Both the position numbers and the translations under genes were made by a program. 47,805 bases of DNA, taken from NCBI GenBank assembly GCA_947374445.1, contig CANCBY010000001.1, positions 1 through 47,805 on the forward strand, written 5' to 3'. The notes under the pieces were generated by a model. It had not been told where the DNA came from. It saw only the letters and a program-made list of their open reading frames with translations, and ran no database searches. Below, piece by piece: positions 16,179 through 40,164 of this stretch. The DNA comes from Pseudobdellovibrionaceae bacterium. GTDB taxonomy: Bacteria; Bdellovibrionota; Bdellovibrionia; Bdellovibrionales; Bdellovibrionaceae. Position 1 is the first letter of the stretch. Each line of letters begins with the position of its first letter.

Positions 16179-16211
16179 CAAGGTCAATTTTTTGCCGAAA
16201 GGCTCTACTGT

Positions 16212-24881: not shown

Positions 24882-26366
24882 ATGAAAATGTCTCGAGATC
24901 ACATAATACTCAGTATCAATGGCCGTCAGCATGAGATTCGTGGTGAGCATGCATTTATGAATCTGTCGGAATACTTGCGTTACCAAGCAGGGCTTGCAGG
25001 AACAAAAATTGTCTGTGCTGAGGGTGATTGTGGAGCTTGTTCGGTCTTGGTGGCGAAGACTAGTGATCCAATACGTGATCAGCCTGTAAAGTTCAAGAGT
25101 ATCAACTCTTGTATTCAGCCTGTTTTTAATTTGGATGGTTGCATAGTTGTCACGGTTGAGGCGTTGGCATCAGCCAAAGAGTTGAGCGCTGTTCAACAGT
25201 CGATGGTCGATCAGCAAGGGGCTCAATGCGGATATTGCACTCCCGGGATTTGCATTTCGCTTAGTTACCTAAAGGAACAGACTGGCGGAACTGCGGAAGA
25301 GATTATACCATCCAAAGCGAAAAATTTTTTGACCGGAAATCTCTGCCGATGCACGGGTTACGAGCCGATCATTAAAGCGGCTTGCGGATTGGTCGACGTA
25401 AAAGAGAGTTCACTGAGTAAAAGGTTTCTAACGGCTTCTCAAGTATCGACGCTAAAAGGTGCAACACAAACTGATGTCTATTTTGGGTTTAATAGACCAG
25501 GCCTTGAGCCCATCGAGGTTTGGATACCATCAAGCAAAGAGTCTTTGTTTGGCATGCTTGGCAAGGGGCGATTGATTTCGGGTGCAACGGACTTGGGAGT
25601 CCAGCGCAACAAAGGGCGTCTCGGTGAATCACGATTTATCTCTTTGCAAAAAATAGCGGAGCTAAAGCAGGCCGTAGTAACAAATGGTTTATTACGAATT
25701 GGAGCAGGTCTGACTTGGGATCAGGTGCAAGATTTTTTGCAGGATGATTTTTCTGACTTTGCAGATTCTATAAATTTATTTGCTTCGCCGCAGATTAAGC
25801 ATATTGGAACCTTGGCCGGAAATATTATCAATGCCTCACCCATTGCCGACGGGGTGCCTTTTTTGCTGGTGAATGAAGCGGAGCTTTTGTTGCTCGGGTC
25901 TGGTGGCAAAGAAAGGCGAGTGCCGATTTCTGATTTTTACCAGGGTTATAAAAAGATAGGGATGGCTTCTGATGAGATTTTGTGGGCTGTTCTCTTGCCA
26001 AAAAATAAATTAAAACAAAGAGTGTATAAAGTTTCTCAACGCAAAGATTTAGATATCGCGACGATCAATTTGGCGATTGCATATGAACTTAAAGAAGGAG
26101 TTTTTTCTCATTTGAAACTGGCCTTTGGCGGTGTTGCAGAGACTTCACTGCGAATGACATCTATTGAGAGTCTTGCCCTTGGCCGCAAACCTGATGCATT
26201 GTTTGTCGCTGATTGTGCCAAGGCCATTGATCTTGCACTCAGGCCTTTGAGTGATGTCAGAGGCTCGTCTAAATACCGCATGCTATTAGCAAAGAACCTC
26301 ATCCAAAAATGGGTTGTAGAAATTGATTTAGAATCTCAGCAAAATGTGAATGAGGCGAATGTATGA
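24882..26366 (+). CDS. xdhA: xanthine dehydrogenase small subunit (2Fe-2S plus FAD-binding domains)
   Basis: CAEGDCGACSV, CGYCTPG and CRCTGY iron-sulfur motifs, followed by an FAD-binding/CO-dehydrogenase flavoprotein domain (GATDLGV...). Overlaps xdhB by 4 nt. Confidence 0.9.
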   Translation: MKMSRDHIILSINGRQHEIRGEHAFMNLSEYLRYQAGLAGTKIVCAEGDCGACSVLVAKTSDPIRDQPVKFKSINSCIQPVFNLDGCIVVTVEALASAKELSAVQQSMVDQQGAQCGYCTPGICISLSYLKEQTGGTAEEIIPSKAKNFLTGNLCRCTGYEPIIKAACGLVDVKESSLSKRFLTASQVSTLKGATQTDVYFGFNRPGLEPIEVWIPSSKESLFGMLGKGRLISGATDLGVQRNKGRLGESRFISLQKIAELKQAVVTNGLLRIGAGLTWDQVQDFLQDDFSDFADSINLFASPQIKHIGTLAGNIINASPIADGVPFLLVNEAELLLLGSGGKERRVPISDFYQGYKKIGMASDEILWAVLLPKNKLKQRVYKVSQRKDLDIATINLAIAYELKEGVFSHLKLAFGGVAETSLRMTSIESLALGRKPDALFVADCAKAIDLALRPLSDVRGSSKYRMLLAKNLIQKWVVEIDLESQQNVNEANV

Positions 26367-28699
26367 AGCACGGGCATTCTTCAGCTCATGACTCCGCTGT
26401 TTCGCATGTGACGGGTCAGAGCCAGTATGTCGACGACAGGCAAATGTTGAAAAATGAGCTTTTAGTTGGCTATGTCACAGCCAAAGTGGCTTGTGGCAAA
26501 ATCCAGAATATTGACTTTTCGAAGGCGTTGAAAGTTCCTGGCGTTGTTTGTGTTTTAACCGCGAGTGATCTGGCTCACAATAATTGGGGTACCATTGTTC
26601 AGGACCAACCGCTTTTAGCTCAAAGCCAGGTGGAATATTTTGATGAGCCTGTCGCGATTGTTGCGGCAGAGAGTGAGCAGGCATTGTCTTTGGCTAAAAA
26701 AATGATTTTGGTTGAGATTCAAGCTCTGCCTGCAGTTTTGACGATTCAAGAAGCTGTGAACAAAAAGATGTTTCTTTCGGTGGCCGAGCCCTTTATCAAA
26801 GGTGATTTCAATCAGGCTATGGCTGTGGCTCCACACAAACTTAAGGGAGAGCTCTCTCTTGGCGGTCAAGAGCATTTTTACATGGAGAATCAAGCTGCAG
26901 TTGTTTACTCCTCAGAGAACGGACATTTTGAAGTTCATTCTTCGACTCAACATCCAACCGAAACTCAGCATGTTGTAGCTAAAGCCTTAGGTATTGAATT
27001 CCATAAAGTGACTTGCATCGTAAAACGCTTGGGCGGTGGCTTCGGTGGTAAAGAGTCTCAGGCAGCTCCGATGGCAGCCATGGCTGCACTGGTCGCGCAA
27101 AAGACAGGTCGGGCTGCGCGTATGGTTCTCACCAAAGATGAAGACATGAAGATCACCGGTAAACGTCATCCATTTTGGCATCGCTACGAAATCGGTTTTG
27201 ACGAAAATGGAAAAATTCAAGCCGCCCGCTTTGAATTGTATGCTGACGGGGGCGCTTACACCGATCTTTCGCCTTCGATTTTAGAGCGAGCAATGTTTCA
27301 TGTAGATGGAGCTTATTATCTACCGAATGTAGAAATTTATGCGGCCTGCTGTAAAACCAACACTTATTCAAACACTGCTTTTCGTGGTTTTGGCGGCCCT
27401 CAAGGAACTTTTTTAATTGAGAGCTTGCTAGAGGACATTGCTGTTTTTTTAAAAAAAGACTCTTTCGATATTCGCACTTTGAACTCATATCAAGGTGATC
27501 GTAATTTGACTCCTTACGGGCAAAAGATTGAGCAAAATCCCTTGCCTGAGATTTTTTCAAAGCTGCGAAAGTCTTCAGATTATGATTCTCGACGCCAAGA
27601 GATTTTAAAGTTTAACTCCAAAGATAAATTTAAGCTTCGGGGTTTGTCGATGACAGCGACAAAGTTTGGCATTGCATTTACCGCGAGATTTTTAAATCAG
27701 GGCAATGCCTTAGTGAATTTGCATGTAGACGGAACGGCGCAGGTTTCAACCGGTGCTGTCGAAATGGGGCAGGGAGTAAATACTAAGATCTGCCAGTTGG
27801 TCGCTGAGGTTTTTGGTATTGATTCAAAAAAGATTTCCGTGATGACCACGTCGACGGAAAAAAATGCCAACACTTCTCCCACGGCCGCATCGAGCGGTGC
27901 TGATATTAATGGAGCTGCAGCGGTCAAGGCGGCGCAGGCGATCCGCCAGCGTTTAGCTCGATTGGCCGAAATGTATTTTGCGGGACAAACTTTTGATGCT
28001 TTGAATGAGTATCAGCTTTCGCAGAGTGCTGAAAATTTATCGCATTTTATTTTCAAAGAGGGTCAAGTGCATTGCACGCGAACAAATCAGAAAATTATTT
28101 TTTCTGATTTGTTAAAGAAAGCCCATTTGAATCGAATTTCCCTTTCCGAGTACGCTCATTTTAAGACCGAAGGGCTTGGTTTCGATAAAAAAACGATAAC
28201 AGGAACGCCATTTAAGTATTTTACTTTTGGAGCGGCTGTCACAGAAGTTGAGATTGATCGCTTCACTGGCGAAAGCAAAGTGCTTCGAACAGACATTTTG
28301 ATGGATCTGGGGCGGAGTCTTAATCCTGCCATTGATCGAGGACAGACCACGGGTGCGTTTGTACAAGGTTTGGGTTGGGTGCTTCTCGAGAAGCTGTATC
28401 ATAATACTTCAGGTGAGTTGCTTTCGCATTCGCCAACAACCTACAAAATTCCGAATGTTCAAGATACACCTCGAATATTTAACGTGGACTTTATTGAAGC
28501 CTATAAAGCTGAGGGCGTAGGTATCGGCGCTAAGGCTGTTGGGGAGCCACCTTTTTTGTTGGGTATTAGTTGCTGGACAGCAGTAAAAAATGCCTTGGCG
28601 GGGTTGGAGTCGTCGCGGCGTCCTGACTTTTCAAGTCCGGCAACCGGGGAAGTAATTCTGTTTGAAATAGAAAGGCTTAAAAGTGAGTCTTCGCTTTGA
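26363..28699 (+). CDS. xdhB: xanthine dehydrogenase molybdopterin-binding subunit
   Basis: Aldehyde oxidase/xanthine dehydrogenase a/b-hammerhead and MoCo domains: RLGGGFGGKE, NTAFRGFGGPQG, VEMGQGVNTK, VGEPPFLL. Confidence 0.92.
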   Translation: MKHGHSSAHDSAVSHVTGQSQYVDDRQMLKNELLVGYVTAKVACGKIQNIDFSKALKVPGVVCVLTASDLAHNNWGTIVQDQPLLAQSQVEYFDEPVAIVAAESEQALSLAKKMILVEIQALPAVLTIQEAVNKKMFLSVAEPFIKGDFNQAMAVAPHKLKGELSLGGQEHFYMENQAAVVYSSENGHFEVHSSTQHPTETQHVVAKALGIEFHKVTCIVKRLGGGFGGKESQAAPMAAMAALVAQKTGRAARMVLTKDEDMKITGKRHPFWHRYEIGFDENGKIQAARFELYADGGAYTDLSPSILERAMFHVDGAYYLPNVEIYAACCKTNTYSNTAFRGFGGPQGTFLIESLLEDIAVFLKKDSFDIRTLNSYQGDRNLTPYGQKIEQNPLPEIFSKLRKSSDYDSRRQEILKFNSKDKFKLRGLSMTATKFGIAFTARFLNQGNALVNLHVDGTAQVSTGAVEMGQGVNTKICQLVAEVFGIDSKKISVMTTSTEKNANTSPTAASSGADINGAAAVKAAQAIRQRLARLAEMYFAGQTFDALNEYQLSQSAENLSHFIFKEGQVHCTRTNQKIIFSDLLKKAHLNRISLSEYAHFKTEGLGFDKKTITGTPFKYFTFGAAVTEVEIDRFTGESKVLRTDILMDLGRSLNPAIDRGQTTGAFVQGLGWVLLEKLYHNTSGELLSHSPTTYKIPNVQDTPRIFNVDFIEAYKAEGVGIGAKAVGEPPFLLGISCWTAVKNALAGLESSRRPDFSSPATGEVILFEIERLKSESSL

Positions 28700-29474
28700 A
28701 GCCTATATAGAAAAATATCAAGAGCTCAAAGCTTTGCGTTTGGATTTTGTCACGGTCACATTGGTGAAGATTCTCGGAAGTGCTCCGCAAGATCTCGGTG
28801 CTCGGATGATTGTGTCTCACGAGGGTCTTTTCTGGGGCACAGTCGGCGGCGGAAAAATTGAAAATCACATGATTAAAAAAGCGCAGGAGCTGTTATTCAA
28901 GCCCGGTCTTTATTTGCAGGAGCTCGAAGTTAATCTGCAAAATGATATCGGGATGAGTTGCGGAGGCGCTGTAGGTTTTTTGCTCGAAGCCGAGCGGGCC
29001 GACAGCCTCTGGTCGATTGCAGTTTTTGGGGCAGGGCACGTTGCGCAAGAGCTGATTCCACTTTTGTTGCCGCTTGAGGCTCGTATTCAATGCTTTGACA
29101 CTCGAAAAGAGTGGATTGATAGGCTGCCAACAGCGGCTCATTTATCGAAGTCCCTGGTCGAAGATATGGCTGGGCAAGTTGCAGCTCTTTCTGAGAAGAC
29201 ATTTCTAGTCTCAATCACGATGGGGCACAGTTCAGATTTGCCAATTTTAGATAAGGCTCTTCAAAGAAAGTTTCCTTTTATTGGAGTGATCGGAAGTGAG
29301 CTTAAAGCAAAAAAGCTAGCTCAAGAGCTTTTGTCTTTAGGCCACGCCGAGCAAAGCGTTTCAAGAATGGTATGCCCTTTGGGGTTAAAACTAGGGACCA
29401 ATGCTCCTTATGAAATAGCCGTGAGTATTTTAGCGCAGTTGATTCAGGAGAGAGACAAGAGTTTGCTCGAATAG
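28683..29474 (+). CDS. xdhC: xanthine dehydrogenase accessory (MoCo insertion) protein XdhC
   Basis: XdhC/CoxI layout: VTLVKILGSAPQDLGARMIV...GTVGGG N-domain, then Rossmann-like IAVFGAGHVAQEL. GTG start overlaps the xdhB end. Confidence 0.85.
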   Translation: MSLRFEAYIEKYQELKALRLDFVTVTLVKILGSAPQDLGARMIVSHEGLFWGTVGGGKIENHMIKKAQELLFKPGLYLQELEVNLQNDIGMSCGGAVGFLLEAERADSLWSIAVFGAGHVAQELIPLLLPLEARIQCFDTRKEWIDRLPTAAHLSKSLVEDMAGQVAALSEKTFLVSITMGHSSDLPILDKALQRKFPFIGVIGSELKAKKLAQELLSLGHAEQSVSRMVCPLGLKLGTNAPYEIAVSILAQLIQERDKSLLE

Positions 29475-30822: not shown

Positions 30823-32100
30823 TTACTTGTCTTTCTGATTGTAATTCTGGTTGTAGCTCTGGCTGTCTTTTGGTTTTACTTTGGCGAATTTATCGATGAA
30901 GTGTTGGGTCATAGCTTCGACATCTTGCTTCCAAGTTTTAAGTGGAATTCTAGACACAAGATTGGTCCAGGCCTCAGGTTGTTGCACGGCTCTTGAGTGG
31001 ATAAATCCAAGCGCGTAGGCTTCATAATAAATTACATCACGATTTTCCTTCAAGGTCTTGTCATCTAAGGCTTTATCTGGATCTAGCTGAAGATCAAATC
31101 CAATATTGCCCCAAAACTTTGGACGTAGAATAAACTCTTGATCACGAATCGTTACTCCCTTGAACCAGGGCGAAGGGTTTAGTCCCTGTGTCACCCAGAG
31201 AGTATTGTTGATGCGCTCAAGAGCTGCTGGAACCTCTTGTGTTCTCATCACGGCGACCGCAGGAGCGATCAGTTTTTTCATCTCAAGATGGAGAGGGACT
31301 CCGTTGTTATTAACAAGTATCTCAAAGCGCAAAAGGCCCGATGAACCACCGCCGACTTTGTGAGTTGAAACCATATCTAGGATTTTCACGTTGGGAGAAA
31401 GCACACCTGAAAGACTTGCTAGGCCTGCCTTGATTTGCTGGACTTGGTCAGGCGTGACCTCGCGCATGTAAGGATCGCGAAGGATGCGGGTGCCAGAAAT
31501 TCGGGAAGGATTTGGAAAAGTTCCTCGCTCGCGGCTTTTAGCGGTCATCTTTTTGATCGGATCTGGAATGTCGATCACGCTGCGACGAAGTCCTGATATG
31601 TAAGACTCAATCATTTTTTCAAGCTTTACAGTCGATTCGTCGGCGCCAAGTTTTGAGCCCGGAGTTGTCACGGTCTCGTAAAGGCGGGTGCTGACCATCA
31701 AGCGGAACATATCAAGAACGATCGGGCAGGGGCCGGAGTCATCCATGTCATTGACAGAGAAGAGGTTGGCTCCATTACCCATTATGAGAACGCCAAAATT
31801 TTCAGGATGAGCATCGCCAACGCACCAGCCTGGAACGAGTCCCGCCGCTTGCATTACTTGCAAAGATCTTTGATTGACCATAGTCAGTGCGTAAAAATAG
31901 TCCACATAGCTGCGTAAAAAATGAAAAGAGTCATTGGCCGCGTTAAGTTTTTCTAGGTCTTTGCCAAAATCGTAGGGAACATCTTGTATTTTTATGGTGT
32001 CGCCATCCGCTTTTGCAGAGCTTGGTGCAAAACAAAAACTGCTGCTAATAACAAAAGAAAGCAAGATTGAGAGGGTCAGGGGAGAGATTTTCGCTAACAT
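30823..32100 (-). CDS. DUF2252 family protein with a signal peptide
   Basis: Signal peptide LTLSILLSFVISSSFCFA. WCVGDAHPENFGVLI matches the DUF2252 GD.H..NFG core. Confidence 0.65.
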   Translation of the reverse strand: MLAKISPLTLSILLSFVISSSFCFAPSSAKADGDTIKIQDVPYDFGKDLEKLNAANDSFHFLRSYVDYFYALTMVNQRSLQVMQAAGLVPGWCVGDAHPENFGVLIMGNGANLFSVNDMDDSGPCPIVLDMFRLMVSTRLYETVTTPGSKLGADESTVKLEKMIESYISGLRRSVIDIPDPIKKMTAKSRERGTFPNPSRISGTRILRDPYMREVTPDQVQQIKAGLASLSGVLSPNVKILDMVSTHKVGGGSSGLLRFEILVNNNGVPLHLEMKKLIAPAVAVMRTQEVPAALERINNTLWVTQGLNPSPWFKGVTIRDQEFILRPKFWGNIGFDLQLDPDKALDDKTLKENRDVIYYEAYALGFIHSRAVQQPEAWTNLVSRIPLKTWKQDVEAMTQHFIDKFAKVKPKDSQSYNQNYNQKDK

Positions 32101-32456: not shown

Positions 32457-33584
32457 ATGCAAAGGTATGAGTATTATGCCCCTCATCTAGAGAGGGTCAG
32501 TCGCAGTTTTTCATTTTGTATCGCTCGACTTGAAGGACGGTTTAGAGATCAAGTTGGGCTTTCCTATTTGATCTTGAGGGTTTTAGATACGATTGAAGAT
32601 GCTCCTTGGAAGAGCTTTGAATTGCAGCAAGTGTCTTTTGAGACATTCAATGCTTTTATTCTGGAAACTTTAGCTCAGGATTCTCTTTCTAAAAAAATAG
32701 ATCAAGACCAATGGCTCCAGTGGGTTCAGTCTTTTCCTAGCGACATTGCCGAACACGAAGGAACGCTTTTACGAGATTCTCAGATTCTTTTTCAAGACCT
32801 TGCAAATACGGAAGTTCGAGCTCGCAAGGCCATTATTGATTCGATATTGAACATGAGTCGAGGGATGATGTTTTTTCAGTCTCAGTTCCGGGACAAAATA
32901 AAAAATAAAAACAGAATTCAAATCGCTTCTTTAGCTGAGCTCAATGGCTATTGTTTTTTTGTCGCCGGAGTTGTGGGCGAGCTATTGACAGAGTTGCTTA
33001 TTGTTCAGAGTCAAGATTTCGTATCTAATTCAAAAGTTTTTTCATATGCTGTTCAATTTGGTCTTTTTCTGCAAAAAATAAATATTCTCAAAGATCAGAT
33101 GACCGACGAAAAAGAGGGGCGGCTGTTGATTCAGTCAAGACTCGAAGTCCTCTCAAGTTTAAAAAAAGATCTTGAAGGTGCTTTTGAGTATTTAAAATCT
33201 ATTCCAAAATCAGAAGTTGGCTACAGGCTTTTTTGTGGTTGGTCATTGTTTGTTGGACTTGAGTCTTTGCCGTGGATACAGAAAAGTTGGGCGTTAAAAA
33301 TTTTAGACAAAATTCCACGAGCCTTTACTCGAAGCATTCTGAGCGAGATTGAAAAAATTATTTTAGATGATGACGCTTTGATGGAAAAATACTTGAGTCT
33401 TAAAGATTTTATTCCAGATACTTTGATGTCTGAAAAAAATAGCAGCGCAGTTATAGTTTCTGAAGGTTCTGAAGCTATAGCTTCTAACTGGATCAGTTCT
33501 GAGGCTTTTTTGCAGTTGTATCATGGTCGATTGCAAATTGAACAGCTGGCACTTCTAGAGATTTTGCCGGGGTCACAAGCGTAA
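32457..33584 (+). CDS. squalene/phytoene synthase family protein (eukaryote-type squalene-synthase-like)
   Basis: SRSFSFCIARLEGRFRDQVGLSYLILRVLDTIEDA (first Asp-rich motif DTxED) and INILKDQMTDEKEGR (second Asp-rich region), resembling SQS NIIRDYLED..GR. Confidence 0.65.
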   Translation: MQRYEYYAPHLERVSRSFSFCIARLEGRFRDQVGLSYLILRVLDTIEDAPWKSFELQQVSFETFNAFILETLAQDSLSKKIDQDQWLQWVQSFPSDIAEHEGTLLRDSQILFQDLANTEVRARKAIIDSILNMSRGMMFFQSQFRDKIKNKNRIQIASLAELNGYCFFVAGVVGELLTELLIVQSQDFVSNSKVFSYAVQFGLFLQKINILKDQMTDEKEGRLLIQSRLEVLSSLKKDLEGAFEYLKSIPKSEVGYRLFCGWSLFVGLESLPWIQKSWALKILDKIPRAFTRSILSEIEKIILDDDALMEKYLSLKDFIPDTLMSEKNSSAVIVSEGSEAIASNWISSEAFLQLYHGRLQIEQLALLEILPGSQA

Positions 33585-33615
33585 TTTGAGATCGAGCACT
33601 GGGCATGGAGGAAGT

Positions 33616-33948
33616 TTGATTAGCACACATATTTTGGACACAAGTAAAGGGCAGCCAGCTTCAGGCGTAGAGGTCTCGTTAGAAAAAAAGCAAGGTGCTC
33701 AGTGGGAGTTGGTTGATCAGCAGCGAACTAATATTGATGGTCGAGTTGTGTTTAACTGTGGCTTTCACCCGGGATTCTACCGTCTGAATTTTCAAACTGA
33801 GGCCTATTTTAAGAAGACTCTCGGGACTTCTTTTGCATCGTTTTTTGCAGATGCTATTGTTCAGTTTAATATCGAGGACACTAAAAGAAAATATCATATC
33901 CCATTGCTTCTAAATCCTTTTGGGTACAGCACCTACCGGGGGAGCTAG
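33616..33948 (+). CDS. uraH: 5-hydroxyisourate hydrolase (transthyretin-like)
   Basis: (M)ISTHILDTSKGQPASGVEV..., and the diagnostic C-terminal tetrapeptide YRGS. TTG 33616 follows GGAGGA; the ORF-track TTG 33586 is also possible. The stop TAG shares its G with the GTG start of the next gene. Confidence 0.85.
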   Translation: MISTHILDTSKGQPASGVEVSLEKKQGAQWELVDQQRTNIDGRVVFNCGFHPGFYRLNFQTEAYFKKTLGTSFASFFADAIVQFNIEDTKRKYHIPLLLNPFGYSTYRGS

Positions 33949-36900
33949 TGAACTCAGTTTTTTTTGAGATCGAAGCATTCCATCAGTTTTTAGCTCCTCG
34001 GCTGGCTCGCAAAATTTTAAGTGACGCTATTCAGGTTTCTGCCGTGGATGGGCTTTGTTTGACTCAGCCGCCTTCAGGGCTTGAAACAACAGAATCTCTG
34101 CAATTTCTTTGTGACGTCTATTTGCAAACCAAATCGCAGTTAAAAACAGTGCTTCGCCAGCGCGCAAAGGATAGAGATTTTTTAGATGAACGAGTGGCCG
34201 CTTGTTATCAGTTCAATAAAGAGCGTAGCTACGATATCACAAATCCTCATGCGCGCTCAGTGATTGGTCTTGAGGATGGCAGTGGACGTGTTGTTTTTGG
34301 TCCGTTGCAGACTAACTACTTTACAGTAAACTCAAGCAAAGCAAAAATAGCTCCTTTGCCAGATTGGCTGCAGGGTCCTCATGTGACTCTCTTTGGGCCT
34401 CCGGACAACGCAAAAATGGCGATCAATGCCATGAATAGCTTCCATCGCAAACTCAAATCAGAACCGCCAATTGTTGAAGAGCTTTTAGCGCAAAATAATT
34501 GTTCGCCCTTCTGGGGGGCTGATGACGAGGATTCAAAAACTCCTCTTCACGTAGATTTGGTTGCTGCAGGTGAGAACCTCACGGCCTGTTTTAAAAATAC
34601 ACTTTGTCTTGAAGAGGGTCCGAAGAGGTATTCTCTTGCGAAAGATCATCTTGCAAAACCACTTAAGCGTTTTGCGGGCTTGGCATTGCCTGCAAGTTTT
34701 GCTTTCTATAAAAAAAACCCTCTCCCGCTTCATCTTTATGATTTTGCTCTGCATGTCTTTCATAATTGGGACAATCCTCAAGCTTTGGCGTTCTATGTCC
34801 CTAAATTAGAAAACGAAGAAGAGGCTGCGTATATTCATCACATGATTCAAGTCACAGAGGTGCTTCTTAAAAAGCTCCATCCGCAGTATGTGCTTGGAAC
34901 AATTCGCGTGATGGTAGTACTTGAAAACCCAAGAGCTATTTTGCGTTTGCATGAAATTATGGATAGTCTTTATCCTTATTTTGCAGGCGCGTCGCTTGGT
35001 TGGCATGATTACTTGGCATCGACGGCCCGAATTTTTAAAAATGACGGTCGCTATCGAATTCCGGTCAAAGCAGATCCAGAGATTGTGATCAAGTACATAA
35101 AGGCCTCTCATCATTTATTGGCCGATGTTGTGGGTTCTCGCGGTGGGATTAAAGTCGGCGGCATGTACGGAATTCTTCCTCAGCTGGATGAGCTCGATCC
35201 GACTTTGTCTCAACAGTCGTTTCAGGTGACGCTACGGGGTTTTTTTAAAGATGTGATCACGCAATTGAAGCGAGGCTTGAATGGATTTTGGGTGGCTCAC
35301 CCTGATTTTGTTCGCCTAGGGCTCGCGCTTGTAAAAGCCTGGGATCTTCATGTGGCGGGAGACTCTTTGCCAATTAAAAAGTTGGTTGAGGGCTTGCTTC
35401 CACGTCAATTTCAGAACGAGATCGAAAAGTTTATTTTTGCAGAGGACATAAAAGGACTCGATTCATCAGATCCTCAGTTTGTACGCTCATTGCTTGTGGC
35501 AAATATTAAAAAATCTGAATTTATAGCAAACAATCATCCAGATGAAATTCGCTACAACGTATTTCAGACCTTGCAGTATCTGACTGATTGGCTGAGCGGG
35601 CGTGGTTGTGTGGCGCTTCCAACAAGTATTGATGGCGTGGCTGTGCGAGTGATGGATGATTTGGCCACGGCCGAGCGATCACGCTGGGAGGTTTGGCACG
35701 AGCTTTATCACGGCCGTTTTTTGCTAGAAGATTTTTTAGTGATCGCGGCCGAAGAACTGCATTTTATTCGCAAGAATTTAACTCAAGGTCACAAGTCAGT
35801 TCAGGTTCAGTGGAATGAACGAACGGCCAAGTGGTATCCGGTGGCCTATCATTTAATGATCAAGCTGATGACGGATAAAAATCCTGCCGAGTTTGCCACG
35901 GAGCTTTTGTTGCCGTTTACAGTCGATCACATCAGAAATACCGATGAGCCTTTGGTGGCCTTACAAAAAATTGACCCAGAAAAAATTCGTCTTTTGCCAA
36001 ACGTAGAAAGATTTTTGCAAGGTTTTGAAGCTTGCGGGTCTAAGCGTTGGGCCAGCGCTCTGTCTCAGGATCTCATATTTGATAATTCAAAAGCCGAAGC
36101 CTTGATTAAATCATTTAGTTTTGAAGAGGTAAAAGAAGCCGCTCGATTTCACGGAGATATCGGCGAGAAAAAAGCGACTCTGGACGCTCATGCTTCAAAA
36201 GAGCAGGCCCTCGTTTTTTCTGAAGCCGAGAGTCTTCGCAAAGAACTTCAGGATCTGGGTTCAGAGTATTTAAATAGATTTGGGATAAAGTTTTTGGTTT
36301 CTGCCCAAGGCTTATCTGGGGGAGCTTTGCTCAGTCTTCTTAAAACGCGAAGCTTAAACTCGCTAGAGAGAGAGTTAGAGTTAGCTCGAGAAGCACTTTG
36401 GTTGATTGCAAAAAAAAGAATCACCAGTCGAAATAATGTCGATCTCTTTCAGAAAATTGAAAGCCTAAGACAAAGGTACTCTGTTAAAGCGGCAGGTCTT
36501 TGCATTTTGAATCAGGGACTGACTCAAGAATTAGCCCTTGGCGATGCTCGGGTTCACACCCATTTTCAAATAGCTTCATTGAGTAAGTCCATAGCTTCAG
36601 CCGTTGCTTTGCAATACTTTGAAAGTAAGGGGATTTCACTCTCCACATCGGTGAATCAGCTTCTTACTCAAAGTGGATCTGCTTATCGTATCGAGGCTGT
36701 TGCAGGAGTCGATGCCAGTGAAGTCAAGCTTGCTCATCTTATCAGCCATGCGGCGCTCAACATGCATTATGTCAATGGCATTAAGTCGGGTGAGCCAAAG
36801 CCTTCAGTTGCAGCTCTCGTCGGTGGAAGTGAAAAATACTCTTACCAGCGAGTGATGGCGATCAATCCTCCTGGGCAAAAATTTCAGTATTCGGGTGGGG

Positions 36901-38642
36901 GATTTTTAGTTCTTGAGCATCTGTTAGAGTCCTTGGAGTCAAAGCCGATTCAAGAGATTATTTCTCCGTATCTCGCGGCGATGGGGCTTAAAAATTTGGG
37001 TTGTGGTCAATCTGTTTTTGAAACAGCCAAAGGCTATTTTGATGACGGCAAAATGGTTTCGGGTGGGGGATTCCAGTTTCCATTGTTTGCAGCGGGGATG
37101 ACGTCTGATGCTAAAACAGTAGCGCAATTTCTGCGGGGGCTTGAATTAGCCTATAAAAATCTTCAAGGCTCTGCAGGAATATCACATGATTCGGCTGTAG
37201 AGATGCTTCACGGAACCGATCGCGGCTGCCAAAAATTTATGGGTTGCTTGATGGGGCTGGGGATTTTTGTTGCTGAAGCGGGCCCCAATAAAATGATGTT
37301 GCATCAAGGGTCTAACGAGGGCTTTCGAGCCTTATTTTTGCATTGTTATGCGGGTCCAGATGCAGGCAAAGGCATGGTTCTTTTGTGCAATGCTGACAAC
37401 CAAGGTTTGAGATTTATTGCCGAGACGGCGCAAGAACTGTTGAAAGCTTTCGAATTTCAAGGAATCAATTTTGATCTCTTTAGGCATCATTTCGATGCCA
37501 GCCTTTTTTCTCAAGAACAGATCGTAAATATGGGTTACAAGCAGTTAATTTTTTCAGCGTTTGAGCCCACTTTGCCTGAAAAAATTTTAGTTCATGGTCC
37601 GGTGAATTCGATGTCGCGTTTTGATATCTTGTCCGAGGCTAAAGTCATTTCTGTGACCAATCAAAAATTTGCAAGGGCTGAAAATCTTATCAGCCCCTTT
37701 GAGCCCACCTTTGACCCAGAGCTTTTTGGCCAGCAAGGCAAAGTGATGGACAGTTGGGAGTCAGTTCGTCACAACACATTGGAGTGCGACGAGGTTGTAT
37801 TTGAGCTGCAAAAGCCTTCATCGGTGAATTACATTTTTATTTCTACAAAATTTCACGACGGCAATCAGGCTGAATTTGTGAGGATTTTGGGTCTAATTGA
37901 AGCTAAGGTTGAGATTGATGCCGCTGGTTCTGAAAAGTGGATCGAGATTCTGCCAAAAGTACAAATGTTAGGACATTCATTTCGAAAAATAAGACTTGCA
38001 TCACCTACATCTATTTTCTCTCGCATTAAGATTCAAATGCAACCCGATGGGGGGCTTACACGAGTGGGTCTCTATCGAGAGTTTTCGATTTTAGATCGTG
38101 AAGGATTTGAAGCCCTTGAAAAAAGCAAATGCGTCCGATTTGCTGAGGCTATTCCTAAAGCACAAAAACCCTTGAGTCTTTCTTATGTGCCCGCGGCTAT
38201 TGATAAAAATAAAACTTCGCGAAAAAATCTTGCAAGTCTTGCTGAAGGCGCAAAGATGCTCTCGGCAACGAACGAGCATTATGGTCCTGCGATTCAGTTG
38301 CTTTCGCCGTTTGCGCCGCTCAATATGTTTGACGGAATTGAGTCCGCTCGCAGTCGCAAGCCAGGGCACTTTGAAGAGGTTATCGTCGCTCTCAGCGAAA
38401 TAAGCACCGTGAGTGAAGTTGTTTTGGATTTTAAATATTTTGTGAATAACAACCCTCTTTTTGTAGAAATCGAAGCGCTCTCAGTAACAAGTGGCTGGGT
38501 GTCTTTGGTTAAAAAAACTCAAGTGAAAGCATTTGCAGGAAATCAAAAATCGTTTTTTGTTAGCAACAACGATCAATTCACCCAAATTAGATTAAAGACA
38601 TTGCCTGACGGCGGAATCAACAGACTCTTTGTTTATGAATGA
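33948..38642 (+). CDS. 1564-aa four-module fusion: malate synthase-like (about aa 1-680), OHCU decarboxylase (about aa 685-830), beta-lactamase-fold serine hydrolase (about aa 850-1190), allantoicase (about aa 1210-1564)
   Basis: Malate synthase A-like: LYDFALHVFHN, FYVPKLENEEEA, TIRVMVVLEN, GGMYG, GFWVAHPDFV, VMDDLATAERSRWEVW. OHCU decarboxylase: CGSKRWA, EAARFHGDIGE, SKEQ, YLNRFGIKFLVSAQGLSG, ELELAREALWLIAKKRI. Serine hydrolase: ASLSKS (Ser877-x-x-Lys), HYVNG (YxN), LHQGS (HxG). Allantoicase repeats: QQGKVMDSWESVRHN, FHDGNQAEF, MQPDGGLTRVGLY and TLPDGGINRLFVY. No stop codon across 4695 nt. Confidence 0.85.
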   Translation: MNSVFFEIEAFHQFLAPRLARKILSDAIQVSAVDGLCLTQPPSGLETTESLQFLCDVYLQTKSQLKTVLRQRAKDRDFLDERVAACYQFNKERSYDITNPHARSVIGLEDGSGRVVFGPLQTNYFTVNSSKAKIAPLPDWLQGPHVTLFGPPDNAKMAINAMNSFHRKLKSEPPIVEELLAQNNCSPFWGADDEDSKTPLHVDLVAAGENLTACFKNTLCLEEGPKRYSLAKDHLAKPLKRFAGLALPASFAFYKKNPLPLHLYDFALHVFHNWDNPQALAFYVPKLENEEEAAYIHHMIQVTEVLLKKLHPQYVLGTIRVMVVLENPRAILRLHEIMDSLYPYFAGASLGWHDYLASTARIFKNDGRYRIPVKADPEIVIKYIKASHHLLADVVGSRGGIKVGGMYGILPQLDELDPTLSQQSFQVTLRGFFKDVITQLKRGLNGFWVAHPDFVRLGLALVKAWDLHVAGDSLPIKKLVEGLLPRQFQNEIEKFIFAEDIKGLDSSDPQFVRSLLVANIKKSEFIANNHPDEIRYNVFQTLQYLTDWLSGRGCVALPTSIDGVAVRVMDDLATAERSRWEVWHELYHGRFLLEDFLVIAAEELHFIRKNLTQGHKSVQVQWNERTAKWYPVAYHLMIKLMTDKNPAEFATELLLPFTVDHIRNTDEPLVALQKIDPEKIRLLPNVERFLQGFEACGSKRWASALSQDLIFDNSKAEALIKSFSFEEVKEAARFHGDIGEKKATLDAHASKEQALVFSEAESLRKELQDLGSEYLNRFGIKFLVSAQGLSGGALLSLLKTRSLNSLERELELAREALWLIAKKRITSRNNVDLFQKIESLRQRYSVKAAGLCILNQGLTQELALGDARVHTHFQIASLSKSIASAVALQYFESKGISLSTSVNQLLTQSGSAYRIEAVAGVDASEVKLAHLISHAALNMHYVNGIKSGEPKPSVAALVGGSEKYSYQRVMAINPPGQKFQYSGGGFLVLEHLLESLESKPIQEIISPYLAAMGLKNLGCGQSVFETAKGYFDDGKMVSGGGFQFPLFAAGMTSDAKTVAQFLRGLELAYKNLQGSAGISHDSAVEMLHGTDRGCQKFMGCLMGLGIFVAEAGPNKMMLHQGSNEGFRALFLHCYAGPDAGKGMVLLCNADNQGLRFIAETAQELLKAFEFQGINFDLFRHHFDASLFSQEQIVNMGYKQLIFSAFEPTLPEKILVHGPVNSMSRFDILSEAKVISVTNQKFARAENLISPFEPTFDPELFGQQGKVMDSWESVRHNTLECDEVVFELQKPSSVNYIFISTKFHDGNQAEFVRILGLIEAKVEIDAAGSEKWIEILPKVQMLGHSFRKIRLASPTSIFSRIKIQMQPDGGLTRVGLYREFSILDREGFEALEKSKCVRFAEAIPKAQKPLSLSYVPAAIDKNKTSRKNLASLAEGAKMLSATNEHYGPAIQLLSPFAPLNMFDGIESARSRKPGHFEEVIVALSEISTVSEVVLDFKYFVNNNPLFVEIEALSVTSGWVSLVKKTQVKAFAGNQKSFFVSNNDQFTQIRLKTLPDGGINRLFVYE

Positions 38643-38970: not shown

Positions 38971-40164
38971 TTATTGGCCAACTTGGTGTTGGCTGATCCA
39001 ACTTGCGAGTATGGCTCGCTCTTCATCGGTGATTTTAGTTTTATTTATCAGCGGCATTGTTTTTGCGACAACGACCTGCTGGTAAAGCTGAGGAATCACT
39101 TTTAGCATCTGCTCTTCTGTTTCAAGAATGAGTCCCTTTGGAGGCTCGGTAAAAATGTCGTCAGTTGGATGGACTCCATGGCAGGCCAGGCATCGCGCTT
39201 GAACGATGGGATGTATTTGCGAATAAGTTACTAAATCCGACGAGCTGCTCCCGCGGTCAGCAATGGGCTGATTGGCAGTGATATAAATGAGTGCCAAAAG
39301 TCCTAAGGAAGCAGGCAGAAGAGTCCATCTCTCTTTGCTATTTTTAGTGACCATAGCGTGGCGAACCATCGCTCCAGAAATCAAAAGAACAATGAGAATC
39401 TGCCAATTATAAACGTGGTTGTAGAGTGCCGGATAATGGTTGCTGAGCATTATGAAAAGAACAGGAAATGTAAAATAGGTATTATGAACAGAGCGGGTCT
39501 TCGCCTTGACGCTGAATGAGTAATCAGGGACTCGTCCTTCGCTGGCATCAAAGACCATCTTTTTTTGTCCAGGTAATATGCGAACCCAAACATTCAAAAG
39601 CATCATTGTTCCGAGCATAGCTCCTGTTTGAATAAAAGCTCCGCGAGAGCTAAAAAAATGAAGATTAATCATGATAAAACCAAAGAGCAGACCAGCAGAT
39701 AAAAGAATATTGATAAACTTTGACTGAATGTACTTCCAGATACTGTCGTAAATCAGCCATCCAGATATAATCAGGCCTAGGCTTGTTGCAATGGCTTCTA
39801 GTTGGGTGAGTGAGGTCGTTGGATTAGAGGAATTAATGAGAAGACTTGCGCCCTTCAGATAATACAAATAAATTAAAAGTAAATAGCCCGTCATGACTGT
39901 GAGCGTGGCCTCCCACTTAAACCAGTGCAAAACCTTCGGCAGTTCTCCAGGATAGATTTTTTTCTTTTCGACTTGGTAGTAAAAGCCTCCATGTACCATG
40001 AAGAGTTCCCCATCGACGTTTCTTCTGGGTGTTTCTGGTGGAACAAAGGCGCTGTCGAGCCACATAAAATAAAAAGAACTACCAATCCACGCGATCCCAG
40101 CCACTAAGTGAGAGAAGCGAATCAAATACTCGACCCAAATATCAACACTGGAATAAAGCGACAT
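38971..40164 (-). CDS. puuD: integral-membrane cytochrome-c urate hydroxylase (PuuD / DUF989 type)
   Basis: The N-terminal RFSHLVAGIAWIGSSFYFMWLDS...FMVHGGFYY matches the DUF989 core. Multiple TM helices. The C-terminal soluble domain carries the heme-c motif CLACH. Lies in a purine-catabolic context. Confidence 0.75.
   Translation of the reverse strand: MSLYSSVDIWVEYLIRFSHLVAGIAWIGSSFYFMWLDSAFVPPETPRRNVDGELFMVHGGFYYQVEKKKIYPGELPKVLHWFKWEATLTVMTGYLLLIYLYYLKGASLLINSSNPTTSLTQLEAIATSLGLIISGWLIYDSIWKYIQSKFINILLSAGLLFGFIMINLHFFSSRGAFIQTGAMLGTMMLLNVWVRILPGQKKMVFDASEGRVPDYSFSVKAKTRSVHNTYFTFPVLFIMLSNHYPALYNHVYNWQILIVLLISGAMVRHAMVTKNSKERWTLLPASLGLLALIYITANQPIADRGSSSSDLVTYSQIHPIVQARCLACHGVHPTDDIFTEPPKGLILETEEQMLKVIPQLYQQVVVAKTMPLINKTKITDEERAILASWISQHQVGQ

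What the first reader, a model, noticed from the sequence alone, without database searches (positions are those of the whole stretch)
36480..37520. Embedded beta-lactamase-fold serine hydrolase module as a candidate for a missing ureide-pathway step (non-canonical allantoinase?)
Seen: the module keeps a complete active-site triad pattern. Ser877-Leu-Ser-Lys is encoded at 36576-36587, followed by HYVNG (YxN) and LHQGS (HxG). It has no signal peptide of its own and sits between OHCU decarboxylase, which produces allantoin, and allantoicase, which consumes allantoate. Established: the step between those two enzymes is hydrolytic opening of the allantoin hydantoin ring, a cyclic amide. Two known enzyme types do this: the AllB/DAL1 amidohydrolase and the PuuE polysaccharide-deacetylase type. 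I recognise neither in this window. Inference: a penicillin-binding/beta-lactamase-fold enzyme specialises in cyclic amide hydrolysis and is placed exactly between producer and consumer. That makes it a plausible third, analogous allantoinase, or alternatively an allantoin racemase-independent or ureidoglycolate-processing activity. This is a hypothesis from position and chemistry only.
Basis: inference. Interest (0 to 1): 0.75.

Follow-up and report, generated by a model that had tools for sequence, protein, structure and literature searches.

The report
Probable third kind of allantoinase
A beta-lactamase-like serine hydrolase domain sits inside a four-enzyme purine-breakdown protein exactly where the allantoin ring-opening enzyme should be, so it is probably a third, previously unrecognised type of allantoinase, found across predatory bacteria and in some marine eukaryotes.

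Summary
ORF 33948-38642 (1564 aa) reads: malate-synthase-like, OHCU decarboxylase, PF00144 beta-lactamase-fold module (aa ~835-1205), allantoicase. SLSK, HYVNG and LHQGS are at the stated coordinates.

The module belongs to a small, sharply separated family. In 182 members Ser877, Lys880, Tyr941 and His1119 are ≥99% conserved, so it is not a dead spacer.

The same four-domain order appears in essentially all 160 related loci fetched (GC 0.30-0.76). HIU hydrolase, PuuD urate oxidase and xanthine dehydrogenase lie nearby. About 2.2 Mb of these loci hold no PuuE or AllB.

Three independent contexts point the same way:
- One bacterial cluster (L085) has separate genes for every step from xanthine to glyoxylate, including canonical AllA lyase. 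Only allantoinase is missing, and the only unassigned domain is this one, fused to allantoicase.
- Two-domain fusions to allantoicase occur in a copepod and a protist.
- Stand-alone algal members often end in peroxisomal signals.

Where the malate-synthase-like protein stands alone (Desulfogranum), a true PuuE is clustered with it.

Best reading (~0.7): a serine-nucleophile allantoinase. Activity is untested, and whole-genome absence of allB/puuE could not be checked. No paper found describes it.

The parts
36450..37562 (+). Beta-lactamase/DD-peptidase-fold serine hydrolase module (aa ~835-1205 of the 1564-aa protein). Proposed serine-type allantoinase.
   Evidence: Pfam PF00144, E 1.9e-17. 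AF2 pLDDT 91.7. Foldseek hits to class C, R61 and family VIII esterases at TM 0.63-0.71 and 14-19% identity. Family alignments.
36576..36587 (+). Motif 1, S877-L-S-K880: the catalytic Ser nucleophile and the general-base Lys.
   Evidence: Ser877, Ser879 and Lys880 are 100% conserved in 182 family members. Ser877 sits at the N-terminus of helix 44-59 in the model.
36765..36779 (+). Motif 2, H940-Y941-V-N943-G.
   Evidence: His940 and Tyr941 are 99% conserved; Asn943 only 66% (K/Y/F/R/H in the rest).
36888..36902 (+). Family-specific Y981-S-G-G-G motif.
   Evidence: Tyr981, Ser982 and Gly983 are 100% conserved. It was used as a scan pattern, FxYSGGGF.
37302..37328 (+). Motif 3 on the beta-3 strand, H1119-Q-G-S-N-E-G-F-R1127. 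This is the H-x-G counterpart of KTG/HTG, extended by conserved Asn1123 and Arg1127.
   Evidence: His1119, Asn1123 and Gly1125 are 100% conserved; Gln1120 98%; Arg1127 99%. It lies on strand 280-289 of the model.
37512..37541 (+). Conserved C-terminal helix QEQIVNMGYK with invariant Asn1194. This is a hallmark of the family and is also present in stand-alone eukaryotic members.
33948..35990 (+). N-terminal malate-synthase-like domain. Probably ureidoglycolate lyase; alternatively a true malate synthase.
   Evidence: Pfam MS_TIM-barrel and MS_C. It scores 125 bits against a cut-off of 594 for malate synthase A. Against E. coli MSA (3CUZ), R276 becomes W and W277 becomes H. Stand-alone homologues sit in ureide clusters. 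In L085 it is replaced by AllA. Eukaryotic precedent: PMC10120013.
36015..36443 (+). OHCU decarboxylase domain, which makes (S)-allantoin.
   Evidence: Pfam PF09349, aa 714-825. NCBIfam UraD, aa 693-826.
37560..38642 (+). Allantoicase domain with two repeats. It converts allantoate to ureidoglycolate plus urea.
   Evidence: Pfam PF03561, E 1.3e-48. TIGR02961.
33586..33948 (+). HIU hydrolase (transthyretin-like). Its TAG stop overlaps the GTG start of the fusion gene.
   Evidence: Pfam PF00576, E 4.5e-32. Sequence at the junction. Found upstream in most related loci.
38971..40164 (-). PuuD-type membrane urate oxidase with a cytochrome c domain.
   Evidence: Pfam Urate_ox_N, E 6.5e-90. Found in 56 of the 81 sequences compared (80 loci plus the window).
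24882..29474 (+). Xanthine dehydrogenase genes XdhA, XdhB and XdhC.
   Evidence: Pfam. A recurrent neighbour, found in 24 of the 81 sequences compared.

Best explanation
The module is the allantoinase (EC 3.5.2.5) of this pathway. It is a third, non-homologous type, built on the class C beta-lactamase/DD-peptidase fold.

Proposed mechanism (inferred):
1. Ser877, activated by Lys880 and Tyr941, attacks the C4 carbonyl of the hydantoin ring of (S)-allantoin, which the neighbouring OHCU decarboxylase domain has just made.
2. The ring opens to a covalent allantoyl-serine ester. The oxyanion is held by backbone NH groups at Ser877 and on the beta-3 strand after His1119.
3. Water then deacylates the ester to allantoate, as a beta-lactamase does with its acyl-enzyme.
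4. The additional conserved polar residues (His934, His940, Ser982, Gln1120, Asn1123, Arg1127, Asn1194) would bind the small, polar ureido-hydantoin.
5. Allantoate passes to the adjoining allantoicase domain, giving ureidoglycolate plus urea. The N-terminal malate-synthase-like domain then releases glyoxylate plus urea.

One polypeptide would therefore carry four consecutive steps, OHCU to glyoxylate. HIU hydrolase, PuuD urate oxidase and xanthine dehydrogenase are encoded alongside.

What is shown: the fold, the conserved catalytic residues, the domain order, the gene contexts and the distribution. What is inferred: the substrate and the catalytic details.
For: 1. Intact enzyme. PF00144 match, a confident AF2 model with Ser877 at a helix N-terminus and His1119 on a beta strand, and Foldseek probability 1.00 to serine beta-lactamases and DD-peptidases. 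In 182 members, Ser877 and Lys880 are 100% conserved, Tyr941 99% and His1119 100%, along with about 45 other positions at ≥95%.

2. A distinct, small family. Only 41 hits among 5.8 billion proteins in the word-indexed search, and the next PF00144 relatives are about 28% identical. 542 representatives score E<1e-30.

3. Fixed position. All 80 genome loci (Bdellovibrio, Bacteriovoracaceae, Peredibacter, Oligoflexus, Silvanigrellaceae) show collinear MS-like, OHCU-DC, BL, allantoicase, with a median ORF of 1553 aa. So do 79 of 80 metagenome loci spanning GC 0.30-0.76.

4. Independent fusions to allantoicase alone: L085 (P0238), L091, Oithona nana (P0360), eukprot P0267 and P0303.

5. Gap-filling. 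L085 encodes XdhABC, PuuD, HIU hydrolase, OHCU decarboxylase, BL-allantoicase and a canonical AllA ureidoglycolate lyase. Allantoinase is the only step without a gene, and BL is the only domain without a role.

6. Complementarity.
- No PuuE or AllB is present in 1.19 Mb (genome loci plus window) or in 1.10 Mb (metagenome loci).
- The only amidohydrolases found there are guanine deaminase and one dihydropyrimidinase.
- In Desulfogranum a genuine PuuE (511 bits) is clustered with the stand-alone MS-like gene, AllC and AllE.

7. Stand-alone algal members (Prymnesium, Phaeocystis, Phaeomonas). Five of about 15 end in SKL, AKL, SRL or ARL, which are peroxisomal PTS1 signals. The peroxisome is the compartment of eukaryotic urate degradation (PMC10120013).

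8. Chemistry. This fold specialises in acyl-enzyme hydrolysis of cyclic and linear amides (established knowledge).
Against: - No enzymatic measurement exists.
- I could only inspect about 10 kb on each side of each locus, so a canonical allB or puuE elsewhere in these genomes is not excluded.
- The Asn of the YxN motif varies (66% Asn), which is unusual for class C enzymes and DD-peptidases.
- No solved relative is closer than 14-19% identity, so the substrate pocket could not be analysed.
- I know of no example of this fold hydrolysing a hydantoin or imide.
- The role of the MS-like domain (lyase or true malate synthase) is itself inferred.
Confidence: 0.7

Rival explanations
1. The module acts on ureidoglycolate, as an amidohydrolase or lyase, or on another downstream ureide. 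The allantoinase is encoded elsewhere in the genome.
For: The MS-like domain keeps the malate synthase catalytic residues R166, E250, D278 and D447. It could therefore be a genuine malate synthase, which would leave the ureidoglycolate step open. The flanks were only searched to ±10 kb.
Against: In L085 a canonical AllA ureidoglycolate lyase (182.6 bits against a cut-off of 160) lies directly beside the BL-allantoicase gene, and there is no MS-like gene. BL is therefore not needed for that step there, yet it keeps all conserved residues. In Desulfogranum the MS-like gene is the only candidate for the ureidoglycolate step. No AllA occurs in any of the 160 fusion loci.
Confidence: 0.08
2. The module is an active serine hydrolase with a substrate outside the linear pathway, for example salvage of a side product, a peptide or an ester. 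Alternatively it serves mainly as an oligomerisation or scaffold domain. A canonical allantoinase, or spontaneous or other chemistry, supplies the allantoate.
For: PF00144 enzymes are very diverse: esterases, peptidases, LACTB filaments, octameric Pab87. Gene context alone cannot prove the substrate.
Against: Strict conservation of the nucleophile and about 45 other positions across bacteria and eukaryotes argues against a pure scaffold. The module is never seen fused to anything except ureide-pathway enzymes, and when only one partner is present it is always allantoicase. Allantoin does not open spontaneously at useful rates (established knowledge).
Confidence: 0.15
3. The module acts on an earlier or stereochemical step: an HIU or OHCU hydrolase variant, or an allantoin racemase substitute.
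For: It lies directly after the OHCU decarboxylase domain.
Against: A dedicated HIU hydrolase gene is translationally coupled upstream, and the OHCU decarboxylase domain is present. OHCU decarboxylase yields (S)-allantoin directly, so no racemase is needed. This fold has no known racemase chemistry (established knowledge). In two-domain proteins the partner is allantoicase, not the upstream enzymes.
Confidence: 0.04

Closest known systems
AllB/DAL1 allantoinase (cyclic amidohydrolase superfamily, TIGR03178)
   Same: The proposed reaction is the same: hydrolytic opening of the allantoin hydantoin ring to allantoate. The pathway position is also the same.
   Different: AllB is a TIM-barrel enzyme with a binuclear metal centre and a carbamylated lysine. 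The module has no sequence or fold relation to it and would work through a covalent acyl-serine intermediate without metal. No AllB-type gene was found in the window or in 160 related loci.
PuuE allantoinase (polysaccharide-deacetylase-like, TIGR03212)
   Same: PuuE is the precedent for a non-homologous replacement of allantoinase found by gene context. It is also found fused or adjacent to OHCU decarboxylase: the NCBIfam model is literally named 'uraD_N-term-dom'.
   Different: The fold is different (NodB-like). A genuine PuuE is present beside the stand-alone MS-like gene in Desulfogranum but absent wherever the BL module occurs.
Class C beta-lactamases, Streptomyces R61 DD-peptidase, family VIII esterases (IS11 7SPN), Pab87, LACTB, ClbP, SurE
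   Same: The fold is shared, with Ser-x-x-Lys at a helix N-terminus, a Tyr in the second motif and an H/K-x-G motif on beta-3. The 'SLSK' motif resembles AmpC 'SVSK' (from memory).
   Different: - Identity is only 14-19% and TM 0.63-0.71, with no phmmer hit to any PDB chain.
- It is cytoplasmic or peroxisomal, with no signal peptide.
- It has its own conserved motifs: YSGGGF, FPxxAAG, HQxANxGFR and the C-terminal QExIVN.
- The Asn of YxN is not conserved.
- It occurs only in ureide-pathway contexts.
Eukaryotic malate-synthase-like ureidoglycolate lyase (DrMSL; PMC10120013)
   Same: This concerns the N-terminal domain of the same protein. It is malate-synthase-like and linked to allantoicase, and Arg276 is replaced by a hydrophobic residue (W here, I in DrMSL).
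   Different: Trp365 is retained here but is Met in DrMSL. The bacterial domain is about 680 aa and belongs to a bacterial clade, whereas the paper states that its UGL group holds only eukaryotic sequences. Lyase activity is inferred here from context only.
Known multi-domain ureide enzymes: plant allantoin synthase (HIU hydrolase + OHCU decarboxylase) and allantoicase-OHCU decarboxylase fusions (NF010371)
   Same: Consecutive ureide-pathway steps are fused into one polypeptide. A stand-alone OHCU decarboxylase matches the C-terminal part of the 521-position 'allantoicase' model NF010371.
   Different: Here four domains are fused, one of them of a fold never linked to the pathway. I found no description of this architecture.

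Membership tests
Serine beta-lactamase / penicillin-binding-protein superfamily (Pfam PF00144, class C / DD-peptidase type) | Significant match to the family profile | tested here: met
   63.9 bits against a gathering cut-off of 27, E 1.9e-17, aa 835-1152. The family profile hits class C, R61 and Pab87 chains at E 1e-13 to 1e-9.
Serine beta-lactamase / penicillin-binding-protein superfamily (Pfam PF00144, class C / DD-peptidase type) | Fold: an alpha/beta domain plus an all-alpha domain, with the nucleophile at a helix N-terminus | tested here: met
   AF2 pLDDT 91.7. Foldseek probability 1.00, TM 0.63-0.71 to 7SPN, 2QMI, 3PTE, ADC/FOX and LACTB.
Serine beta-lactamase / penicillin-binding-protein superfamily (Pfam PF00144, class C / DD-peptidase type) | Motif 1, Ser-x-x-Lys | tested here: met
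   S877-L-S-K880, 100% conserved in 182 members.
Serine beta-lactamase / penicillin-binding-protein superfamily (Pfam PF00144, class C / DD-peptidase type) | Motif 2, Tyr-x-Asn | tested here: inconclusive
   Y941-V-N943 is present in the window. Tyr is 99% conserved, but Asn is present in only 66% of the family.
Serine beta-lactamase / penicillin-binding-protein superfamily (Pfam PF00144, class C / DD-peptidase type) | Motif 3, Lys/His-Thr/Ser-Gly on strand beta-3 | tested here: met
   H1119-Q-G lies on a beta strand. His is 100% conserved; the third residue is Gly in 63% and Ala in 37%. The middle residue is Gln rather than Thr/Ser.
Serine beta-lactamase / penicillin-binding-protein superfamily (Pfam PF00144, class C / DD-peptidase type) | Beta-lactam hydrolysis or DD-peptidase activity; periplasmic or secreted location | not testable with these tools
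   Activity was not measured. The module is internal to a cytoplasmic multi-domain protein, or peroxisomal in algae, so a cell-wall or antibiotic role is unlikely.
AllB/DAL1 allantoinase (TIGR03178; amidohydrolase superfamily) | Homology to cyclic amidohydrolases (Amidohydro_1 TIM barrel, metal ligands) | tested here: not met
   The fusion protein has no Amidohydro or AllB hit. None is present in the window.
PuuE allantoinase (TIGR03212; polysaccharide deacetylase fold) | Homology to Polysacc_deac_1 / PuuE | tested here: not met
   No hit in the protein. tblastn with a genuine PuuE finds nothing in the window or in 160 loci.
Allantoinase as a function (EC 3.5.2.5), regardless of fold | Catalyses (S)-allantoin + H2O to allantoate | not testable with these tools
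   Needs an enzyme assay. Only indirect evidence is available.
Allantoinase as a function (EC 3.5.2.5), regardless of fold | Encoded with the flanking pathway steps (OHCU decarboxylase upstream, allantoate-consuming enzyme downstream), with no other candidate for the step | tested here: met
   Fused between OHCU decarboxylase and allantoicase in about 160 loci. In L085 all other steps have separate genes. There is no PuuE or AllB in the flanks. Genome-wide absence was not tested.
Malate synthase A (TIGR01344), for the N-terminal domain | Score above the equivalog cut-off; conserved glyoxylate and acetyl-CoA sites | tested here: not met
   125 bits against a cut-off of 594.5. R276 becomes W and W277 becomes H, while R166, E250, D278, W365 and D447 are kept. 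The domain is malate-synthase-like but not a malate synthase A equivalog.

The most novel reading that the evidence does not exclude
A third, evolutionarily independent allantoinase exists. It uses a serine nucleophile on the beta-lactamase/penicillin-binding-protein fold.

- It is the standard allantoinase of the predatory phylum Bdellovibrionota, where it is welded into a four-enzyme protein (ureidoglycolate lyase-like, OHCU decarboxylase, allantoinase, allantoicase) that could channel OHCU to glyoxylate plus two urea.
- The same enzyme works in the peroxisomes of haptophyte and other marine algae, and as a fusion to allantoicase in a copepod. That distribution implies ancient sharing or transfer between bacteria and eukaryotes.
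- As a corollary, the ~680-aa bacterial malate-synthase-like family would be a bacterial ureidoglycolate lyase. That activity has so far been assigned to malate-synthase-like proteins only in eukaryotes.
Probability: 0.6. Interest if true: 0.85.

Novelty: new variant of a known kind. Interest (0 to 1): 0.8.

Why it matters
Allantoin ring opening is a central step in nitrogen recovery from purines. Only two enzyme types are known for it, AllB/DAL1 and PuuE.

- **Annotation.** A third, serine-based type would close a gap in pathway annotation for a whole bacterial phylum and for abundant marine eukaryotes (haptophytes, a pinguiophyte, a copepod). Automated reconstruction would otherwise call the pathway broken in these organisms.
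- **Enzymology.** It would add hydantoin hydrolysis in primary metabolism to the reactions known for the beta-lactamase/PBP fold. That is relevant to how this fold evolves new amidase activities and to hydantoinase biocatalysis.
- **Biology.** A four-step fusion is a natural test case for substrate channelling. It also fits predators that feed on prey nucleic acids.
- **Side result.** The analysis yields a testable candidate for a bacterial malate-synthase-like ureidoglycolate lyase.

Tried and rejected
1. A single-sequence phmmer search of the module against PDB gave no hit. Only the family profile reached class C and DD-peptidase chains.

2. The 'OHCU+BL' and many 'BL+allantoicase' proteins from the first homologue search looked like independent architectures. 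Most are fragments or mis-started calls of the four-domain protein, since their N-termini begin inside the preceding domain. Only P0238/L085, L091, P0267, P0303 and Oithona P0360/P0265 are counted as genuine two-domain forms.

3. Candidate canonical allantoinases in the flanks did not hold up. The recurrent Amidohydro_1 neighbour (4 Oligoflexus loci) is guanine deaminase. The single cyclic amidohydrolase (L029) is dihydropyrimidinase, 608 bits against a cut-off of 393. The Haloferula neighbour is also dihydropyrimidinase.

4. A metagenome scan with P0238 alone found nothing. It was repeated with alignment A2.

5. An exact look-up of the 1564-aa product failed, probably because the GTG start is read as V rather than M. 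The PuuD neighbour places the locus in MAG GCA_947371025.1.

6. The 'inactive structural spacer' idea was rejected because of the conserved catalytic and pocket residues.

7. The ureidoglycolate-processing idea was rejected because AllA co-occurs with BL-allantoicase in L085.

9. Whole-genome absence of allB/puuE could not be tested.

10. Eight literature searches found no paper connecting this fold to allantoin hydrolysis or describing the fusion. The library lacks most subscription-journal papers.
Full report
**1. What is in the sequence**

The finding lies inside one long ORF, 33948-38642 on the + strand, of 1564 aa. Its GTG start shares a base with the TAG stop of the preceding gene (TAGTG) and follows a GGGGGAG Shine-Dalgarno sequence.

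Pfam divides the protein into four parts:
- a malate-synthase-like region (MS_TIM-barrel and MS_C, aa 241-652)
- OHCU decarboxylase (aa 714-825)
- Beta-lactamase PF00144 (aa 835-1152, E 1.9e-17)
- two allantoicase repeats (from aa 1231)

The neighbouring genes are:
- HIU hydrolase, 33586-33948
- a PuuD-type urate oxidase, 38971-40164, minus strand
- XdhA, XdhB and XdhC, 24882-29474

No AllB or PuuE is encoded in the window.

**2. Is the module a real, active enzyme?**

An AlphaFold2 model built on a 20-sequence family alignment is confident, with pLDDT 91.7 and pTM 0.92. Ser877 sits at the N-terminus of a helix and His1119 on a beta strand, as in serine beta-lactamases.

Foldseek against the PDB returns the family VIII esterase IS11, Pab87, the R61 DD-peptidase, class C enzymes, LACTB, ClbP and SurE. 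Probability is 1.00, but TM is only 0.63-0.71 and identity 14-19%. The single sequence finds no PDB chain by phmmer.

I extracted 182 full-length domains and aligned them.
- 100% conserved: Ser877, Ser879, Lys880, Tyr981-Ser982-Gly983, Ala1049-Gly1050, His1119, Asn1123, Gly1125 and Asn1194.
- At least 98% conserved: His934, His940, Tyr941, Gln1120 and Arg1127.
- The Asn of 'YxN' is only 66% conserved, and the Gly of 'HxG' is Ala in 37%.

The module is therefore under strong selection as a catalyst. It forms its own subfamily with extra conserved polar residues. An 'inactive spacer' is excluded.

**3. How big and how separate is the family?**

A word-indexed search of 5.8 billion proteins found only 41 hits. 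The next PF00144 proteins are about 28% identical. An exhaustive profile search found 542 representatives at E<1e-30. Full-length members score above about 230 bits. The next group, at about 160 bits, consists of unrelated tandem PF00144 proteins. NCBIfam (June 2026) has no model for the module, and sources call it 'serine hydrolase' or 'CubicO group peptidase'.

**4. Distribution and architecture in bacteria**

A scan of one genome per GTDB species found the family in 211 genomes. Nearly all of the best 80 are titled as Bdellovibrionota lineages: Bdellovibrio, Bacteriovoracaceae, Peredibacter, Oligoflexus and Silvanigrellaceae. A few MAG records carry other labels such as Polynucleobacter or Planctomycetia.

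In every one of the 80 loci, tblastn shows the same collinear order: MS-like, OHCU decarboxylase, BL, allantoicase. The ORF has a median length of 1553 aa. Among the 81 sequences compared (80 loci plus the window), the recurrent neighbours are PuuD (56), HIU hydrolase (46) and XdhABC (24). Guanine deaminase, adenosine deaminase and an S1/P1 nuclease occur occasionally.

A metagenome scan added 80 loci spanning GC 0.30-0.76. Of these, 79 show the same order, or a contig-truncated part of it. The window's own locus is found in MAG GCA_947371025.1.

**5. Independent arrangements**

- **L085** (GCA_050294595.1). The cluster reads AllA ureidoglycolate lyase; BL-allantoicase (747 aa, P0238); OHCU decarboxylase; PuuD; HIU hydrolase; XdhA, B and C. 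AllA and OHCU decarboxylase pass NCBIfam cut-offs. Every step from xanthine to glyoxylate has its own gene except allantoinase. The only domain without a role is BL.
- **L091.** PuuD; BL-allantoicase (772 aa); an aminotransferase; a single-repeat allantoicase-like protein; and a separate MS-like gene on the other strand.
- **L089/L090** (GC 0.68). An MS-like gene followed by a BL-allantoicase gene.
- **Eukaryotes.** BL-allantoicase proteins occur in the copepod Oithona nana (P0360) and in a eukprot gene model (P0267).
- **Stand-alone algal proteins** of about 400-450 aa occur in Prymnesium parvum, Phaeocystis cordata, Phaeomonas parva and marine picoeukaryote contigs. Five of about 15 end in SKL, AKL, SRL or ARL, which are PTS1 peroxisomal signals. 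By my estimate the chance rate is about 0.2% per sequence. In a neighbour-joining tree the algal forms make one clade and the bacterial fusions another.

Whenever BL is fused to a single partner, that partner is allantoicase.

**6. The other unassigned domain**

The N-terminal domain scores far below the malate synthase A cut-off, 125 against 594 bits. Compared with E. coli MSA (3CUZ), it keeps R166, E250, D278, W365 and D447 but has R276 replaced by W and W277 by H.

PMC10120013 showed that eukaryotic malate-synthase-like proteins with R276I and W365M are ureidoglycolate lyases. The paper also noted that bacterial malate synthase genes in purine operons are genuine malate synthases when a dedicated lyase is present.

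The domain has many stand-alone ~680-aa bacterial homologues at 47-56% identity. In Desulfogranum japonicum one sits in this cluster: PuuE allantoinase (511 bits), an ABC transporter, a racemase-like gene, MS-like, ureidoglycine aminohydrolase, allantoate amidohydrolase and GntR. No other enzyme for ureidoglycolate is present there.

No AllA occurs in any of the 160 fusion loci. Where AllA is present (L085), MS-like is absent. I therefore read the MS-like domain as the probable ureidoglycolate lyase. This is an inference.

**7. Complementarity with canonical allantoinases**

tblastn with the genuine PuuE and with a cyclic amidohydrolase found nothing relevant. The search covered 1.19 Mb (80 genome loci plus the window) and 1.10 Mb (80 metagenome loci). 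The only hit was one dihydropyrimidinase. The recurrent Amidohydro_1 neighbour is guanine deaminase.

So in ureide clusters that use the same MS-like enzyme, a PuuE is present when BL is absent (Desulfogranum). BL is present when PuuE and AllB are absent.

**8. Interpretation**

The pathway runs in these steps:
1. Urate is converted to HIU by PuuD.
2. HIU is converted to OHCU by HIU hydrolase.
3. OHCU is converted to (S)-allantoin by OHCU decarboxylase.
4. (S)-allantoin is converted to allantoate by an enzyme that is not otherwise accounted for.
5. Allantoate is converted to ureidoglycolate plus urea by allantoicase.
6. Ureidoglycolate is converted to glyoxylate plus urea by MS-like or AllA.

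The BL module is the only unassigned catalyst. It always sits next to allantoicase, and its fold specialises in amide hydrolysis through an acyl-serine intermediate.

The most likely mechanism has three steps. Ser877 attacks the C4 carbonyl of the hydantoin ring. The ring opens to an allantoyl-enzyme ester. Water then releases allantoate, which the adjacent allantoicase takes up.

- Shown: the fold, residue conservation, architecture, contexts and distribution.
- Inferred: the substrate, the attack site, the roles of the extra polar residues and any channelling.

Confidence is about 0.7.

**9. Rivals**

- Ureidoglycolate processing is contradicted by L085.
- An unrelated hydrolase or a scaffold is hard to square with the exclusive ureide-pathway fusions and the conserved active site.
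- A racemase or an HIU/OHCU step is unnecessary and chemically unlikely.

The main residual doubt is that a canonical allantoinase could lie elsewhere in these genomes. I could not scan whole genomes.

**10. Novelty**

Eight full-text searches found no paper that links the beta-lactamase fold to allantoin hydrolysis or that describes this fusion. Current NCBIfam and Pfam give the module no specific name.

The reaction is known, but the catalyst type would be new. It would be a third analogous allantoinase, after AllB and PuuE. I rate it a new variant of a known kind, with high interest. It is directly testable with a simple assay and an S877A control.

Noticed in passing
window 33948-35990; L081 7350-9422; L082 10001-12034: The ~680-aa malate-synthase-like family is widespread as a stand-alone protein in bacteria (Desulfobulbales, Myxococcota, Bradymonadales, Haloferula). 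It sits in ureide clusters that lack any AllA-type lyase. It may be a bacterial ureidoglycolate lyase, whereas PMC10120013 reports its malate-synthase-like UGL group as eukaryote-only.
   Followed up: partly
window 13932-17357: A 748-aa protein with DinB_2, FGE-sulfatase and methyltransferase domains (OvoA-like architecture, from memory) is followed by a class V aminotransferase/lyase. This looks like an ovothiol-type thiol-histidine biosynthesis pair.
   Followed up: no
window 17357-18931: A glycoside hydrolase family 14 (beta-amylase) gene, Pfam E 9.5e-95. This family is mostly found in plants and is uncommon in bacteria (from memory).
   Followed up: no
window 32457-33584: A squalene/phytoene-synthase-like gene (SQS_PSY, weak squalene synthase match) ends 1 bp before the HIU hydrolase start. 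It seems to head the same transcription unit. tblastn found no counterpart in the 80 related genome loci.
   Followed up: partly
window 29480-30757 (-) and 30823-32100 (-): An RNase HI domain is fused to a CFI-box-CTERM domain in a 425-aa protein. Next to it is a DUF2252 protein. Both lie between the xdh genes and the ureide genes.
   Followed up: no
L088 10001-11368 (P0379; P0001 cluster): A stand-alone family member (455 aa, with a long charged N-terminal extension) lies on a 44.7-kb contig of GC 0.36 whose other ORFs have no Pfam hits. In the tree it nests among the bacterial fusion domains, not with the algal stand-alone forms. Its origin (protist, virus or odd bacterium) is unknown.
   Followed up: partly
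L091 5808-6308: A 166-aa protein consisting of a single allantoicase repeat is encoded between the BL-allantoicase gene and the MS-like gene. L091 and L085 both also carry class V aminotransferases nearby, which are possible glyoxylate aminotransferases.
   Followed up: no
L089 624-5026; L090 469-4856: In a GC 0.68 lineage the four-domain protein appears split into two genes. The break lies inside or next to the OHCU decarboxylase region and is identical in two independent assemblies. It may be a real split or a shared frameshift.
   Followed up: no
P0307 (Owenia fusiformis, 1662 aa); P0350, P0352, P0359: Proteins with two or three tandem PF00144 domains, one from an annelid, are the nearest outgroup to the family at about 160-230 bits. 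Their function is unknown.
   Followed up: no
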